A stretch of DNA of 41,222 nucleotides from a phage. Made by a program: the position numbers and the translations under genes. Numbering within the stretch: the stretch's first letter is position 1; the number at the start of each line of letters is the position of its first letter. Under the pieces are notes generated by a model. That model did not search any database. It was not told the DNA's origin and saw only the letters and a list, made by a program, of their open reading frames with translations. The stretch lies in the sequence record NC_105863.1; one strand, 5' to 3'. Of the stretch, positions 13,460 to 29,431 are shown piece after piece.

Positions 13460-13651
13460 TCACTTCTCTTTGACATTCGAGTTGCACGCCCAGATTAAGA
13501 TAAATACCCACGGCAGCAGAATCCAGCCAAGAAACAGGTTAGCCATGAATATCGCTAACTTCGCTTTATGGCTACGCATATGGGCCACTAAAAACGGGAT
13601 AAAATAAACTAAAACGATAATAATTAAGAAGAACATAGTAATACCTGTCAT
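13460..13651 (-). CDS. small two-TM membrane protein
   Basis: 63 aa, two hydrophobic helices (FFLIIIVLVYFIPFLVA; LFLGWILLPWVFILIWA); first ORF downstream of the minus-strand promoter at 13686-13722. Confidence 0.4.
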   Translation of the reverse strand: MTGITMFFLIIIVLVYFIPFLVAHMRSHKAKLAIFMANLFLGWILLPWVFILIWACNSNVKEK

Positions 13652-26451: not shown

Positions 26452-26736
26452 CTAACTATAATAGTTCGCTATTAGGTCGTCAACCTGTTTAAACGAACCA
26501 ACGACAAAAACATTCGCACCACGTTTACGCATACGCTCGTGCTCACGTAACTGGTGTGGGTCTGGCTTCGTGTTTTCGTCTTTCTTAACCTCGACGAACA
26601 AGACGATGCCGCCGGGTAGAATTACCAGCAGGTCGGGAGCGCCGGAGCGCCCCTCATAGGAAAGTTTACGAACGAGGCCGCCGATAGCCTCGAATCGCTC
26701 TTTTGCGTATTTCTGGATGCGCCCCTCTTTAGTCAT
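26452..26736 (-). CDS. VRR-NUC domain nuclease
   Basis: 94 aa; PD-(D/E)XK-type core GAPDLLVILPGGIVLFVEVKKDE characteristic of VRR-NUC proteins. Confidence 0.65.
   Translation of the reverse strand: MTKEGRIQKYAKERFEAIGGLVRKLSYEGRSGAPDLLVILPGGIVLFVEVKKDENTKPDPHQLREHERMRKRGANVFVVGSFKQVDDLIANYYS
26455..26483 (-). promoter_or_regulatory. sigma70-like promoter (TTGACG -17- TATAGT) with palindromic AACTATAATAGTT core
   Basis: Minus strand reads TTGACG, 17 bp, TATAGT; plus-strand sequence 26454-26466 is the near-perfect palindrome AACTATAATAGTT. Confidence 0.5.
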
Positions 26737-26885
26737 GGGCGCAGAATCCAGGTAATGAAAGCCCCACCTAGAACGGCGACACCGACAAACTTAAAGAACA
26801 GGCCGTAACAGAACATCGCGGCTATTCCCGCACCGAGTAACAGCGCGAGCATGGTTACTATCGTCCAAAATACAAACATTGTCAT
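26733..26885 (-). CDS. small hydrophobic membrane protein (50 aa)
   Basis: MTMFVFWTIVTMLALLLGAGIAAMFCYGLFFKFVGVAVLGGAFITWILRP; ATGA overlaps at both ends (with VRR-NUC start and preceding micro-ORF); below ORF-track cutoff. Confidence 0.35.
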   Translation of the reverse strand: MTMFVFWTIVTMLALLLGAGIAAMFCYGLFFKFVGVAVLGGAFITWILRP

Positions 26886-26971
26886 AATACGCACCCCTCA
26901 CGTTTCGTATGTTCAATACCGCAGCGCGGGCAGATTCGACAGTCTTCTTCATAAAACCAGTAAATTTTCAT
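26882..26971 (-). CDS. Cys-rich micro-protein (29 aa, possible zinc ribbon)
   Basis: MKIYWFYEEDCRICPRCGIEHTKREGCVL; CxxC-x2-C and a fourth Cys; ATGA-coupled to flanking micro-ORFs. Confidence 0.3.
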   Translation of the reverse strand: MKIYWFYEEDCRICPRCGIEHTKREGCVL

Positions 26972-27099
26972 TCCAGCACCCACAGATAAATTGCGATGAA
27001 CATGCCCAATATGGCAACCATCATGCCGTATTGACCCTCGTGACAGTAAACACCGGCGGCGAATCCAGCCAGTACCGCGATAATCAGTTTACTTGGCAT
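26968..27099 (-). CDS. small hydrophobic membrane protein (43 aa)
   Basis: MPSKLIIAVLAGFAAGVYCHEGQYGMMVAILGMFIAIYLWVLE; start overlaps 3' end of polymerase gene in another frame. Confidence 0.35.
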   Translation of the reverse strand: MPSKLIIAVLAGFAAGVYCHEGQYGMMVAILGMFIAIYLWVLE

Positions 27100-29269
27100 A
27101 ACGCTTCATCTCCGCGCCTTCTGCTACAAGAGGGAACCCCTCGGCCCACTCTGGTAATTCGCACATCAATCGTTCCAGTTCTGCGACATTGTATTCTGGT
27201 AAATCTGGTGTCTCGCAGATAATCTCATCGTGAACATGAAGCACAATCGGGTAGCCGTTTGCTTCGACGTTCAGCAGTGCATTAGCCAGCAAATCACGGC
27301 ACAGCGCCTGAGTGCAGTTTTCCACCAGTTTACCAGAGTAGGTGTACTGGAAGCCCCACTGACGGGTTAACTGGTTTTCGCCCTGGTACTTGATGCGCAC
27401 GTTGGTAGACACCCTCCCGTCTTCGTCTGTCTCTTTCGACACGCTTAGCCCAACACCCGGATAAGACATAACGCGGCCCGACGGCAACGTCATCCGCAAC
27501 CACCAACCGGCGACTTTGTTGCCGTTGTTGTCCGTTTCTACGTTGCGCGAAAACTTAACTCCCCGCGGCCCTGCGGTGAACTCTTTGCCCGGATTGCGGA
27601 TAGCTGCCATAGCTGCGTCTTCAATATCCCGCCAGAAAGCTACTGTTTCCGGGTGTGACTCACGCCACATACGCTTGATAGCGTCGCAGGTACGCCACAC
27701 TTTCTTATCAAGAATATAAGATGGTCGGTCATCATTTTCACCTGGACGTGGTGGTCGCTTGGCTTCCTGAATACGCGCCCACTCATATCCACGTGCGGTA
27801 GCAGCCCAGATGTGGTCAGGGAAAGTCCCGTCCATTGTTTTTGCCATATCAACAAGGTCAAGGCCGAGGTTCTTGGCGAACTGTACGAATGCGCCGACAC
27901 CACCCGCGTAGCCAAGTCCAAGTTCACATGCCTTACCAATCTGGCGTAAGTCTTTACGTTCTTTCTTAATGTAATCCGGCTCCATGCCGAACATCTTGCC
28001 TGCGGTTACGCAGTAAATATCCAGCCCGGCACGGAACGTATCAAGCGCGGTTTCTTCGCCAGCCAGCCACGCCAAACCGCGGCCTTCAACGTTCGAGTAG
28101 TCGGCGACGACAAACTTATGTCCGGCTTCCGGGATAATGCAGCTGCGAACCGTAGATGCCGTTAGCTTGGCTACATCAAAACGGCGATGTGCTCGGCCCT
28201 TAAGTAATGCTGAAATACCTTTATCCAGTTCATCATCGTGATAGTACCCACGCGCCAGGTTCTGCGGCTGGAAGCCTTTACCAGCAAATCGTAACGTACG
28301 TTTAGCTCCACCATACTGGATGCAACCGCGACGGCGGTCGTCAGACGAGCGGCCTAACAGCAGCGGGTTATATTTCGTTGACGCAGTGGATGCCACCCCG
28401 AGGCGCATTTCTATAATCGTGCGGGCGTCGTCCGGTAAATCATCGTCAGCAAGCAGGTCGTTAAGCGTAGACTTCTGCGCGTTGTGGATGCGATGCGCAG
28501 GCGCCAGTTCACGCAGAATCGGCAGGAAGTCCTTACCTGTAAGCGAGCCGCCGTATTTACGTCGGGCTTCTTCCTGTAACTGTGCCTTGTGTTTCTCCAC
28601 AGCTTCAATTGCGGCTTCCGCCAGCGCAACGTCGACCTTAAACCCGCGGTCGTTAATTAACTGGTCCAGTTCCAGTACACGGTCTTCGAACTCGGAGTTA
28701 CCCCAACGCGGCAACTTATGGAACACTTCACGCATCGCGGTGATGTCGCTAACGGCGTACTTGATGAACAGCGCCCACTCATCCGGGTGCGTTTCAGCAG
28801 TGTAGCGGCGAATTTTGTAGTTCTTCGGCGTCGGTTTAGAGAAACGCTGAATAAGCGCTTTGCCTCGTTTGTCTTTCGCGTTGTCTGCAGACACGCCAAG
28901 CACTTCGCACAATGCGTCGAGTGAACCCGGCAGCGCGTGACGAAACGCCCAAATCATCGTATCAATGGTGTTGCTTACGGGAATATCAAAACCCCAGCAG
29001 TGCTTCATGATGAGTCTGTCGAACATTGAGCCGTTGTGCCACACCATCTTAATACGGCTGTTTGGTTTCACCAGACGGCGTAACGCGCGGTGCAAATCAC
29101 CCGGCATGTCGCCGCCGTTGGTGCAATCCCATACCTGTACAGGCTCGTCGTCAAAAGCATAGGTACAGATAAGCACTTCGGTAGTCTGGTGTTCGGCATA
29201 AGCGTAGGAACCGACTTTCTTTAAATCGGCTTTGGAGAATGTTTCAAAGTCCAGGTATAAATAGCTCAT
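27089..29269 (-). CDS. DNA polymerase I (family A) with 3'-5' exonuclease domain
   Basis: Exo I motif YLDFETFS; motif A-like DYSNVEGRGLA; motif C HVHDEIICE; ATG 29269 has RBS AAGGAAAAAGAA (ORF track begins at TTG 29323). Confidence 0.9.
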   Translation of the reverse strand: MSYLYLDFETFSKADLKKVGSYAYAEHQTTEVLICTYAFDDEPVQVWDCTNGGDMPGDLHRALRRLVKPNSRIKMVWHNGSMFDRLIMKHCWGFDIPVSNTIDTMIWAFRHALPGSLDALCEVLGVSADNAKDKRGKALIQRFSKPTPKNYKIRRYTAETHPDEWALFIKYAVSDITAMREVFHKLPRWGNSEFEDRVLELDQLINDRGFKVDVALAEAAIEAVEKHKAQLQEEARRKYGGSLTGKDFLPILRELAPAHRIHNAQKSTLNDLLADDDLPDDARTIIEMRLGVASTASTKYNPLLLGRSSDDRRRGCIQYGGAKRTLRFAGKGFQPQNLARGYYHDDELDKGISALLKGRAHRRFDVAKLTASTVRSCIIPEAGHKFVVADYSNVEGRGLAWLAGEETALDTFRAGLDIYCVTAGKMFGMEPDYIKKERKDLRQIGKACELGLGYAGGVGAFVQFAKNLGLDLVDMAKTMDGTFPDHIWAATARGYEWARIQEAKRPPRPGENDDRPSYILDKKVWRTCDAIKRMWRESHPETVAFWRDIEDAAMAAIRNPGKEFTAGPRGVKFSRNVETDNNGNKVAGWWLRMTLPSGRVMSYPGVGLSVSKETDEDGRVSTNVRIKYQGENQLTRQWGFQYTYSGKLVENCTQALCRDLLANALLNVEANGYPIVLHVHDEIICETPDLPEYNVAELERLMCELPEWAEGFPLVAEGAEMKRYAK

Positions 29270-29391
29270 TTCTTTTTCCTTAAATCCAGTGCCTTCGTTT
29301 TGCTGAGTCTTATTTTCATACAATCACGGCAAATCCACACATGCCTGTACCCGGCGCGGTACTCATCCGCGTACCACGGAAGTGGCTTCAT
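29266..29391 (-). CDS. micro-ORF (41 aa) translationally coupled to DNA polymerase
   Basis: MKPLPWYADEYRAGYRHVWICRDCMKIRLSKTKALDLRKKK; its TGA overlaps polymerase ATG (ATGA); below ORF-track cutoff. Confidence 0.25.
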   Translation of the reverse strand: MKPLPWYADEYRAGYRHVWICRDCMKIRLSKTKALDLRKKK

Positions 29392-29431
29392 ATATCGGTA
29401 TACGTGCTTACAGAAAAACATTATTTTCGAC

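What the first reader, a model, noticed from the sequence alone, without database searches (positions are those of the whole stretch)
26733..27099. Three ATGA-coupled micro-ORFs (membrane / Cys-rich / membrane) hidden between polymerase and VRR-NUC genes
The 350-bp stretch looks intergenic on the ORF track (cutoff 60 aa; one spurious plus-strand ORF). On the minus strand it encodes three consecutive micro-proteins, each start overlapping the previous stop in ATGA: 43 aa hydrophobic, 29 aa with CxxCxxC...C, 50 aa hydrophobic. Small membrane proteins inside a replication operon are candidates for superinfection exclusion or host membrane remodelling.
Basis: seen in the sequence. Interest (0 to 1): 0.45.

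Follow-up and report, generated by a model that had tools for sequence, protein, structure and literature searches.

The report
Three tiny coupled phage genes
Three very small genes (two membrane peptides flanking a 29-residue cysteine/histidine peptide) really are encoded between the DNA polymerase and VRR-NUC nuclease genes of this Kagunavirus-type coliphage, but related genomes already list them as hypothetical proteins and their function is still unknown.

Summary
On the minus strand, ORF1 (27099-26968, 43 aa), ORF2 (26971-26882, 29 aa) and ORF3 (26885-26733, 50 aa) tile the gap between polA and VRR-NUC. ORF2, ORF3 and VRR-NUC start in ATGA overlaps. ORF1 instead overlaps the polymerase end by 11 nt. 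Across about 60 related loci all three frames stay open. Their dN/dS values (0.19, 0.065, 0.18) are in the range of the flanking essential genes (0.09, 0.13), and no other frame looks coding. They are not hidden. They match PHROG families 10404, 38225 and 14925 (unknown function), and many GenBank relatives such as Bas70 annotate them. The new context is that the pol/VRR-NUC junction is a cassette hot spot, with 12 architectures in 56 non-redundant loci. ORF2 is in every Jersey/Kaguna-type locus sampled. ORF1 and ORF3 are optional and can be replaced by other small genes or HNH endonucleases. ORF2 has no homologue outside the clade, and its conserved ligand candidates are C14, C17, H21 and C27, not the first Cys. 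Superinfection exclusion is untested, and the genome already carries a T4 Imm-type gene elsewhere. Verdict: real, ordinary, already catalogued accessory micro-genes of low to moderate interest.

The parts
27089..29323 (-). Family A DNA polymerase gene (longest ORF; relatives annotate a shorter start). Its last 11 nt overlap ORF1 and its C-terminal codons carry ORF1's Shine-Dalgarno sequence.
   Evidence: PF00476, PF01612; annotated as DNA polymerase in relatives.
27110..27113 (-). GGAG Shine-Dalgarno for ORF1, 10 nt upstream of its ATG, inside the polymerase coding sequence.
   Evidence: Sequence. GGAG or a close variant (GAGG in one allele class) is present upstream of ORF1 in the loci listed.
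26968..27099 (-). ORF1: 43 aa, two hydrophobic segments (L5-Y18, M26-L42) joined by the conserved loop YCHEGQYG; phrog_10404; optional in the clade.
   Evidence: 223 phage records; dN/dS 0.19.
26977..26981 (-). GGGTG Shine-Dalgarno-like element 5 nt upstream of the ORF2 ATG, inside the ORF1 coding sequence.
   Evidence: Sequence; conserved context atctgtGGGTGctggaATGA.
26882..26971 (-). ORF2: 29 aa, hydrophilic, with a CPRCG knuckle plus H21 and C27; phrog_38225; present in every Jersey/Kaguna-type locus sampled; ATGA overlap with the ORF1 stop.
   Evidence: 444 records; dN/dS 0.065.
26892..26899 (-). GAGGGGTG Shine-Dalgarno embedded in ORF2 codons R24-C27. It serves whichever gene follows ORF2 (ORF3 here; the 64-aa protein, the 25-aa peptide, HNH or VRR-NUC in relatives).
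   Evidence: (junction sequences of 11 loci).
26733..26885 (-). ORF3: 50 aa, almost entirely hydrophobic, rich in small-xxx-small motifs (GAGIA, GVAVLGG); phrog_14925; optional; ATGA overlaps at both ends.
   Evidence: 120 records; dN/dS 0.18.
26452..26736 (-). VRR-NUC / Holliday-junction-resolvase-like nuclease gene. There is no obvious Shine-Dalgarno of its own in this architecture, and its start overlaps the ORF3 stop (ATGA).
   Evidence: phrog_93/5702; PF08774, below cutoff; annotated as VRR-NUC or resolvase in relatives.

Best explanation
The stretch holds three genuine, translated micro-genes. They are read from the replication-operon mRNA by ribosomes that initiate at Shine-Dalgarno sequences embedded in the preceding gene and/or re-initiate at overlapping stop/start codons: pol to ORF1 (11-nt overlap), then ORF1 to ORF2 to ORF3 to VRR-NUC (ATGA overlaps). 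They are not one functional triplet. ORF2 is a clade-restricted core gene of Jersey/Kaguna phages. It is a 29-aa soluble peptide whose conserved C14-x2-C17-x3-H21-x5-C27 set (CPxCG knuckle) most likely binds one metal ion (inferred). It acts in the cytoplasm during the replication phase (inferred). ORF1 and ORF3 are optional helical inner-membrane micro-proteins (inferred from hydropathy). They sit in a cassette hot spot at the pol/VRR-NUC junction, where small genes and free-standing HNH endonuclease genes are swapped precisely at start codons, probably by recombination or homing-associated co-conversion (inferred). Where present they are kept by purifying selection (shown) but are dispensable for replication (shown by natural variants). 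They are therefore best read as accessory factors that act on host or competitor membrane components. Exclusion of other phages is the leading but unproven specific role.
For: Coding status. dN/dS is 0.19 / 0.065 / 0.18 in the called frames, against 0.9-3.4 or ubiquitous stops in the other five frames. There are no internal stops in 42/50/25 distinct sequences. Third-position variability dominates: 20 of 25 ORF2 codons vary at position 3. The flanking benchmarks are polC 0.088 and VRR-NUC 0.127. Start codons change only between ATG and GTG while the 4-nt overlap is kept. A 116-nt deletion in a Jerseyvirus clade fuses the first 7 codons of ORF1 in frame to ORF2 (MLSKLII-YYFREEDC...), which preserves ORF2 translation from the ORF1 start. 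Shine-Dalgarno elements lie 5-10 nt before each ATG. All three give full-length PHROG matches with E-values of 1e-22 to 1e-34. Distribution: ORF2 is in 444 phage records, ORF1 in 223 and ORF3 in 120, essentially all Salmonella/Escherichia Guernseyvirinae. ORF2 is in 60/60 sampled loci whose VRR-NUC is at least 84% identical, and in none of 29 more distant loci. Hot spot: there are 12 architectures among 56 non-redundant loci, including alternative occupants (a 64-aa phrog_25645 protein, a ~25-aa single-TM peptide, HNH genes or an HNH remnant). ORF3 presence is independent of the adjacent polymerase allele, Fisher p=0.59. Membrane character: GRAVY is 1.35 and 1.76, and AF2 predicts a helix over residues 2-48 at pLDDT 93 for ORF3. 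There is no Rfam match and no convincing internal promoter or terminator.
Against: No expression data (Ribo-seq, proteomics) exist for these genes in any relative that I could find. Metal binding, membrane insertion and every functional statement are inferences. AF2 on ORF2 was uninformative (pLDDT 60). AF2 on ORF3 gave one continuous helix and not a hairpin, so the topology is open. Part of ORF2's C-terminal conservation could reflect the embedded Shine-Dalgarno and not the peptide, although synonymous changes do occur there. SETP3 has lost the ORF1 ATG (ACG). Singleton frameshifted versions occur in raw assemblies, so ORF1 is under weak or lineage-specific constraint. The pairwise dN/dS values are averages over non-independent, recombining sequences.
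Confidence: 0.75

Rival explanations
1. Superinfection exclusion. ORF1 and/or ORF3 insert in the inner membrane early in infection and block DNA entry of secondary phages, in the manner of T4 Imm or HK97 gp15.
For: They are small, very hydrophobic, helical peptides expressed with early/middle genes. They are optional, with rapid presence/absence turnover among close relatives, as expected for genes in phage-phage competition. From general knowledge, exclusion is the commonest proven role of small phage inner-membrane proteins.
Against: Neither matches PF14373 or any exclusion or defence family. The genome already encodes a canonical Imm_superinfect protein at 13463-13651 (49 bits against a cutoff of 27.9). 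No experiment exists. Hydrophobicity alone is not specific.
Confidence: 0.2
2. ORF2 is a dedicated accessory subunit of the replication/recombination machinery. It would be a metal-stabilised mini-protein that binds Pol A, VRR-NUC or DNA, and its position between those two genes reflects stoichiometric co-translation.
For: It is present in 60/60 Jersey/Kaguna-type loci, whatever else occupies the slot. Its purifying selection is at least as strong as on the polymerase C-terminus (0.065 against 0.088). When ORF1 was deleted the frame was preserved so that ORF2 is still translated. It is always directly coupled to pol upstream and carries the Shine-Dalgarno for the downstream gene.
Against: More distant phages with homologous pol and VRR-NUC lack it completely (L059-L088), so those enzymes do not intrinsically need it. 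It has no homology to any known replisome component. No interaction data exist.
Confidence: 0.2
3. Translational relay only. The ORFs exist merely to carry ribosomes from pol to VRR-NUC, and the peptide sequences are irrelevant.
For: Every junction is a stop/start overlap, and VRR-NUC has no clear Shine-Dalgarno of its own in this architecture. Open frames are maintained even after deletions.
Against: Amino-acid sequences are strongly conserved while synonymous sites vary freely: pS 0.24-0.43 against pN 0.04-0.06. Relatives place VRR-NUC directly after ORF2 or directly after pol, so no relay of this length is needed.
Confidence: 0.03
4. Decaying remnants of larger genes, for example of the HNH homing endonucleases that use this slot. 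Under this reading ORF2's Cys motif would be a relic zinc finger.
For: HNH genes and an HNH N-terminal remnant (Jersey_40) occur at exactly these junctions. One depositor labelled the 32-aa form of ORF2 'HNH endonuclease'.
Against: Profile comparison of ORF2 with the three HNH proteins found in the slot gives probabilities of 3% or less, matching only CxxCG. There is no HNH hit in Pfam or PHROGs for ORF1-3. Purifying selection and constant length across the clade are not what pseudogene fragments show.
Confidence: 0.03
5. Lysis-timing proteins: ORF1 and ORF3 act as holin/antiholin-like small membrane proteins.
For: Their size and two hydrophobic segments resemble class II/III holins or pinholins.
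Against: The lysis cassette (two holins, endolysin, spanins) is elsewhere in the genome of close relatives. There is no holin family match. They are transcribed with replication genes on the opposite strand from the lysis genes, and they are often absent.
Confidence: 0.04

Closest known systems
PHROG families phrog_10404 (ORF1), phrog_38225 (ORF2) and phrog_14925 (ORF3), and the corresponding 'hypothetical protein' CDSs in GenBank Guernseyvirinae (e.g. Bas70_0041/0040/0039, CPT_Sciku_039/038)
   Same: Full-length HMM matches with E-values of 4.5e-32, 2.5e-22 and 8.9e-34. The genomic position is identical and protein identity is 84-98% (Bas70) or up to 100% in other records. These are the same genes.
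   Different: Nothing structural differs. Those entries carry no function, and several relatives leave the ORFs unannotated.
T4 Imm-type superinfection immunity proteins (Pfam PF14373 Imm_superinfect)
   Same: Small (about 60-80 aa) two-TM inner-membrane phage proteins made before lysis. ORF1 and ORF3 have a similar size class and hydrophobicity.
   Different: There is no sequence match. ORF1 and ORF3 are shorter (43 and 50 aa). The true family member in this genome is a different gene at 13463-13651.
CPxCG zinc-knuckle / zinc-ribbon mini-proteins (e.g. haloarchaeal Brz, PMC2253796; the knuckles of S27ae, Nop10 and RpoM)
   Same: ORF2 contains an exact CPRCG knuckle, and PDB profile hits align only on that motif. 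Like the haloarchaeal proteins it is a stand-alone micro-protein.
   Different: The E-values of 2.6-7 are not significant. ORF2 has one knuckle followed by a single His and a single Cys, not a second CxxC. At 29 aa it is about half the size. Metal binding is untested.
Retroviral-type CCHC zinc knuckle (Pfam PF00098, C-x2-C-x4-H-x4-C)
   Same: The same ligand types in the same order, spanning the same 14 residues (C14 to C27).
   Different: The spacing is C-x2-C-x3-H-x5-C, and no Pfam hit appears at E<=1. This is a resemblance from my own knowledge of the motif, not membership.
Free-standing homing-endonuclease insertion hot spots between conserved phage genes (e.g. T4 mobE, which mobilises itself and flanking DNA; PMC2790892 abstract)
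   Same: Different HNH genes sit at the pol/ORF1 and ORF2/VRR-NUC junctions in relatives, an HNH remnant is present in phage Jersey, and flanking markers are mosaic.
   Different: The window itself has no HNH gene in this slot. Homing activity and co-conversion here are inferred, not shown.

Membership tests
PHROG phrog_10404 / phrog_38225 / phrog_14925 | Significant full-length match to the family HMM | tested here: met
   E = 4.5e-32 (1-43 of 43), 2.5e-22 (5-32 of 36) and 8.9e-34 (1-49 of 50).
Protein-coding gene (as opposed to a chance ORF) | Purifying selection on the amino-acid sequence in the called frame only, with the frame kept open in relatives | tested here: met
   dN/dS is 0.19/0.065/0.18. 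The other frames give 0.9 or more, or carry stops. There are 0 internal stops in 42/50/25 distinct sequences.
Protein-coding gene (as opposed to a chance ORF) | Direct evidence of translation (ribosome footprints or peptides) | not testable with these tools
   No expression data were found in the literature searched.
Translationally coupled operon genes | Stop/start overlap with the upstream gene, plus a Shine-Dalgarno sequence inside the upstream coding sequence | tested here: met
   ATGA at 26971-26968, 26885-26882 and 26736-26733, and an 11-nt overlap of pol and ORF1. SD elements are GGAG, GGGTG and GAGGGGTG. Actual coupling was not measured.
Imm_superinfect (PF14373) superinfection immunity proteins | Pfam HMM hit above the gathering score | tested here: not met
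   There is no hit for ORF1 or ORF3 at E<=1. The positive control in the same genome scores 49.1 bits against a cutoff of 27.9.
Imm_superinfect (PF14373) superinfection immunity proteins | Blocks DNA entry of a superinfecting phage | not testable with these tools
   Needs plating or DNA-entry assays.
Holins / antiholins | Encoded in the lysis cassette next to the endolysin, and/or a match to a holin family | tested here: not met
   The holins, endolysin and spanins are elsewhere in Bas70 and phage P. There is no holin hit in Pfam or PHROGs.
Zinc ribbon / CPxCG zinc finger | Two CxxC(-like) knuckles supplying four ligands | tested here: not met
   Only one CPxCG knuckle (C14, C17). The other conserved candidates are a single H21 and a single C27, and C11 is replaceable by R or F. 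PDB profile hits are non-significant.
Zinc ribbon / CPxCG zinc finger | Binds Zn2+ | not testable with these tools
   Needs metal analysis of the peptide. AF2 was uninformative.
CCHC zinc knuckle (PF00098) | C-x2-C-x4-H-x4-C spacing and a Pfam HMM match | tested here: not met
   The spacing is C-x2-C-x3-H-x5-C, and there is no Pfam hit at E<=1.
HNH endonuclease (as the 32-aa form of ORF2 is labelled in OR525704) | HNH catalytic motif, or significant similarity to HNH proteins | tested here: not met
   hhalign probability is 3% or less against the three HNH proteins of this slot. There is no HNH family hit.
Known anti-phage defence components (PADLOC-DB) | HMM match | tested here: not met
   0 families at E<=1 for ORF1-3 and for two alternative cassette proteins.

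The most novel reading that the evidence does not exclude
ORF2 is a 29-residue metal-binding peptide that has become an indispensable, clade-specific cofactor of the Jersey/Kaguna replication-recombination machinery, for example a partner of Pol A or of the VRR-NUC resolvase. It has no detectable relative among 1.84 billion representative proteins. The optional membrane peptides ORF1 and ORF3 would modulate or localise it. That would make it one of the smallest dedicated phage replication factors, and a case of a lineage-restricted (possibly de novo) micro-gene becoming core.
Probability: 0.1. Interest if true: 0.55.

Novelty: already known. Interest (0 to 1): 0.22.

Why it matters
As a discovery it matters little. 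The genes are already deposited as hypothetical proteins and are grouped in PHROGs. It has some value as a worked example: micro-ORFs below usual annotation cut-offs can be validated from comparative data alone, and annotation across more than 400 Guernseyvirinae genomes is inconsistent (ORF2 is often unannotated, and once it is mislabelled as an HNH endonuclease). Two points would be worth an experiment in an engineerable phage of this genus. First, a 29-aa Cys/His peptide is under purifying selection at least as strong as on the polymerase C-terminus and is universal in the clade. Second, the pol/VRR-NUC junction is a start-codon-precise cassette exchange site shared by micro-genes and homing endonucleases.

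Tried and rejected
1. Non-coding or structured-RNA reading: no Rfam match at E<=1, no convincing internal promoter or terminator, and a codon-position substitution pattern that is typical of coding sequence. Rejected.

2. The alternative frames: the 123-aa plus-strand ORF (26851-27222) and the 53-aa minus-strand ORF (26952-26791). Stops are common in relatives, or dN/dS is 0.9-3.4. Rejected.

3. Remote homology for ORF2. The search for homologous proteins refuses queries under 40 aa. A concatenated ORF1+2+3 query returned only frameshift fusions, stop-codon read-through forms and gene-caller over-extensions from the same clade. These look like natural fusions but are singletons from raw assemblies, and the database seems to hold few very short proteins. 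Exhaustive phmmer against 1.84e9 representatives found only ORF2 itself plus a junk tandem-repeat translation. The PDB profile search matched only the CPxCG motif at E>2. Pfam and PADLOC found nothing.

4. ORF2 as an HNH relic: hhalign probability 3% or less. Rejected.

5. AF2. The ORF2 model has pLDDT 60 and no secondary structure, so it is uninformative. The ORF3 model is one long helix and cannot decide between a hairpin and a single span. No fold search was attempted, because it would be meaningless at this size and confidence.

6. Literature. No functional, transcriptomic or proteomic data on these genes turned up in Guernseyvirinae papers. The CM001 lead yielded only a genome-length match.

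7. Retrieving OM810255 to confirm the identity of the window: it is not in the collections.

8. Programmed frameshift joining ORF1 to ORF2: considered because ORF2 lies in the -1 frame, but I did not see a slippery heptamer on reading the junction sequence. No formal test was run.
Full report
OBSERVATION. The family A DNA polymerase ORF ends with TAA at 27091-27089. ORF1 runs from ATG 27099 to TGA 26968 (43 aa, MPSKLIIAVLAGFAAGVYCHEGQYGMMVAILGMFIAIYLWVLE). ORF2 runs from ATG 26971 to TGA 26882 (29 aa, MKIYWFYEEDCRICPRCGIEHTKREGCVL). ORF3 runs from ATG 26885 to TGA 26733 (50 aa, MTMFVFWTIVTMLALLLGAGIAAMFCYGLFFKFVGVAVLGGAFITWILRP). The VRR-NUC gene starts at ATG 26736. ORF2, ORF3 and VRR-NUC each begin inside an ATGA overlap. 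ORF1 instead overlaps the polymerase by 11 nt, which is a small correction to the finding. Only 5 of 5000 dinucleotide-preserving shuffles of the 367-nt stretch are fully tiled by ATG-initiated ORFs of at least 20 aa.

WHAT THE WINDOW IS. The 1-kb region matches 623 phage records, nearly all of them Salmonella/Escherichia Guernseyvirinae (Kagunavirus, Jerseyvirus), with 96% as the best identity. It matches no complete E. coli genome. The window length of 41,222 bp equals the length tabulated for Kagunavirus UTI-CM001 (OM810255) in PMC12919940. That record is not in the collections, so the identification is an inference. The three ORFs lie in a minus-strand operon: Gp2.5/Enc34-type ssDNA-binding protein, Pol A, ORF1-3, VRR-NUC, a 63-aa ORF, a C5 cytosine methylase and an SNF2 helicase. 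No convincing promoter or terminator lies inside the stretch.

ARE THEY GENES? I collected 79 IMG/VR loci through the VRR-NUC protein and nine GenBank loci, then located the polymerase C-terminus, ORF1-3 and VRR-NUC in each. All 60 loci with a VRR-NUC at least 84% identical carry ORF2, 51 carry an intact ORF1, and 26 carry ORF3. In the called frames there are no internal stops in 42, 50 and 25 distinct nucleotide versions. Variable sites concentrate at third codon positions. Nei-Gojobori dN/dS is 0.19 (ORF1), 0.065 (ORF2 core) and 0.18 (ORF3). The same loci give 0.088 for the last 121 polymerase codons and 0.127 for VRR-NUC. The other two sense frames give 0.86-3.1. Of the antisense frames, those out of register give 0.9-3.4. 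The one whose third positions coincide mirrors the low value, as expected, but carries stops in 40-100% of sequences. Start codons vary only between ATG and GTG, with the 4-nt overlap retained. Each start is preceded by a Shine-Dalgarno element inside the upstream gene: GGAG 10 nt before ORF1, GGGTG 5 nt before ORF2, and GAGGGGTG 6 nt before ORF3. Synonymous divergence in ORF2 is high (pS 0.43), so the conservation is at the peptide level and not at the RNA or DNA level. There is no Rfam match. I conclude that all three are real coding genes, and that the 123-aa plus-strand ORF is spurious.

THEY ARE ALREADY CATALOGUED. The three peptides match PHROG families 10404, 38225 and 14925 over their full length (E from 1e-22 to 1e-34). 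All three families are of unknown function. Bas70, Sciku (with annotated ribosome-binding sites), ULINTec2, fPoEco01, Bas71 and others annotate them as hypothetical proteins. The closest relative Esher4 and the 2010 K1-phage records do not. By tblastn, which is independent of annotation, ORF2 occurs in 444 phage records, ORF1 in 223 and ORF3 in 120.

THE JUNCTION IS A CASSETTE HOT SPOT. Among 56 non-redundant loci there are 12 architectures (SETP3 is mis-binned there and is really ORF1(no ATG)-ORF2-HNH). After ORF2 one finds any of the following:
- ORF3;
- a 64-aa soluble Cys protein (phrog_25645), with or without ORF3;
- a ~25-aa single-TM peptide;
- an HNH endonuclease (SETP3, Sciku) or its N-terminal remnant (Jersey_40);
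- nothing, in which case ORF2 gains a ...DEYA tail overlapping the VRR-NUC start.
Two unrelated HNH genes can sit between pol and ORF1. The swap point is exact: the GAGGGGTG element in ORF2 codons R24-C27 is followed 5-6 nt later by the start codon of whichever gene comes next. A Jerseyvirus clade carries a 116-nt deletion that fuses the first seven ORF1 codons in frame to ORF2 (MLSKLII-YYFREEDC...). This removes the ORF1 hydrophobic hairpin but keeps ORF2 translated. SETP3 has ACG in place of the ORF1 ATG. ORF3 presence is independent of the neighbouring polymerase allele (Fisher p=0.59), which indicates recombination. More distant relatives (VRR-NUC 69% identical or less) have none of the three ORFs. 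Their slot holds an HExxH protein (phrog_1365), a DNA methyltransferase, an HNH gene or nothing. Free-standing HNH homing endonucleases are known to mobilise flanking DNA (T4 mobE, PMC2790892 abstract). That this drives the mosaicism here is my inference.

THE PROTEINS. ORF1 (GRAVY 1.35) has two hydrophobic segments joined by the nearly invariant loop YCHEGQYG. ORF3 (GRAVY 1.76) is hydrophobic throughout, with conserved small-xxx-small motifs. AF2 predicts ORF3 as a helix over residues 2-48 at pLDDT 93, but in single-sequence mode this cannot separate a hairpin from one long span. ORF2 is hydrophilic. In 20 distinct variants C14, R16, G18, T22-C27 and E8-D10 are invariant, and P15, C17, E20 and H21 are at least 90% conserved. 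C11 is replaced by R or F in several phages, including the isolate Golestan. The likely ligand set is therefore C14/C17/H21/C27 (a CPxCG knuckle plus His and Cys), not CxxCxxC...C. AF2 on ORF2 was uninformative (pLDDT 60).

HOMOLOGY. Pfam gives nothing above threshold and PADLOC gives nothing. A PDB profile search aligns only the CPRCG motif to zinc-ribbon knuckles at E=2.6-7. The large protein database returned only frameshifted, read-through or over-extended versions from the same clade. An exhaustive phmmer scan of 1.84 billion representatives found only ORF2 itself and a junk repeat. ORF2 is unrelated to the HNH proteins that share its slot (hhalign probability 3% or less), so one depositor's label of it as 'HNH endonuclease' is unsupported. 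ORF2 is a clade-restricted ORFan.

MECHANISM. Shown: these are coding genes under purifying selection, physically set up for coupled translation from the replication-operon mRNA. ORF2 is universal in the clade. ORF1 and ORF3 are dispensable and exchangeable. Inferred: ORF2 is a soluble metal-knuckle peptide acting during replication, and ORF1 and ORF3 are inner-membrane helical peptides acting as accessory factors. I put about 0.2 on superinfection exclusion specifically for ORF1/ORF3, and about 0.2 on ORF2 being a partner of the replication/recombination enzymes. The exclusion idea is weakened, though not excluded, by a canonical Imm_superinfect gene (PF14373, 49.1 bits against 27.9) at 13463-13651. 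The relay-only, pseudogene and holin readings are rejected on dN/dS, on profile comparisons, and on the location of the lysis cassette.

VERDICT. The functional speculation remains untested. This is an ordinary feature of a phage accessory-gene hot spot. The one modestly notable element is a 29-aa Cys/His peptide that is core to the clade and has no relatives elsewhere.

CAVEATS. The dN/dS values are pairwise averages over related, recombining sequences. IMG/VR contigs may contain sequencing errors. No expression data exist.

Noticed in passing
window 13463-13651 (-): A 63-aa two-TM ORF is a bona fide Imm_superinfect (PF14373) protein, scoring 49.1 bits against a cutoff of 27.9. It is 71% identical to the 'superinfection immunity protein' P_11 of phage P AB-2017, which lies in an island within the tail module of that relative.
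   Followed up: partly
whole window: The window length (41,222 bp) equals the genome length listed for Kagunavirus UTI-CM001 (OM810255) in PMC12919940 Table 2. The accession is absent from the searchable collections, so the identity is only inferred.
   Followed up: partly
L006, L020, L042, L047, L051-L053, L058 (e.g. L006:463-573): A Jerseyvirus clade carries a 116-nt in-frame deletion that fuses the first 7 codons of ORF1 to ORF2 (MLSKLIIYYFREEDC...). ORF2 is therefore translated from the ORF1 start that overlaps the polymerase stop.
   Followed up: yes
L014, L021, L024, L032, L034, L039, L055, L056 (e.g. L021:2310-2504): An alternative cassette after ORF2 encodes a 64-aa soluble Cys/His protein (MSNKPFSKKLAALVDMPEWEF...CAGCTHKG...), phrog_25645, of unknown function. 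It occurs with or without ORF3 downstream.
   Followed up: partly
L017:2424-2501, L070:2424-2501, L031:2430-2501: Another alternative occupant is a ~23-25-aa single-TM peptide (MTMLTTIMIIVAVFLGVAVLSKVTD). It shares its first codons and a GVAVL motif with ORF3, so it may be an internally deleted ORF3. It has no PHROG match.
   Followed up: no
L007/L043 (SETP3) around L007:1073: The ORF1 start codon is ACG instead of ATG (a synonymous TAT>TAC change in the overlapping polymerase codon), while the rest of ORF1 stays open. This could be a recent inactivation or non-canonical initiation.
   Followed up: partly
L009 (OR525704.1) 1329-1427: The 32-aa form of ORF2 is deposited as 'HNH endonuclease'. 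Profile comparison with real HNH proteins gives a probability of 3% or less, so this looks like a mis-annotation.
   Followed up: yes
window 26455-26483 (-): A promoter-like site, TTGACG-17-TATAGT (10 of 12 matches), lies inside the 3' end of VRR-NUC. Phage Jersey's record annotates a promoter at the same relative position. It would drive the 63-aa ORF, methylase and helicase genes.
   Followed up: no
L059, L061, L063, L067 (between pol and VRR-NUC): More distant relatives carry a 120-133-aa protein with an HExxH motif (AHECxHA), phrog_1365 of unknown function, in the same pol/VRR-NUC slot. L062 carries a 215-aa DNA methyltransferase there, and in L060 pol abuts VRR-NUC directly.
   Followed up: partly
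window 29266-29421 (-): A 51-aa ORF containing Cys (MFFCKHVYRYMKPLPWYADEYRAGYRHVWICRDCMK...) lies between the SSB and polymerase genes and overlaps the longest polymerase ORF's upstream extension. Phage P has an HNH endonuclease at this junction. I did not test it for conservation.
   Followed up: no
proteins P0001-P0014: Raw-assembly databases contain singleton frameshift or read-through variants that fuse ORF1 to ORF2 or ORF2 to ORF3. They are probably sequencing errors or rare variants, and they surface only because the database seems to hold few proteins as short as the intact ORFs.
   Followed up: partly
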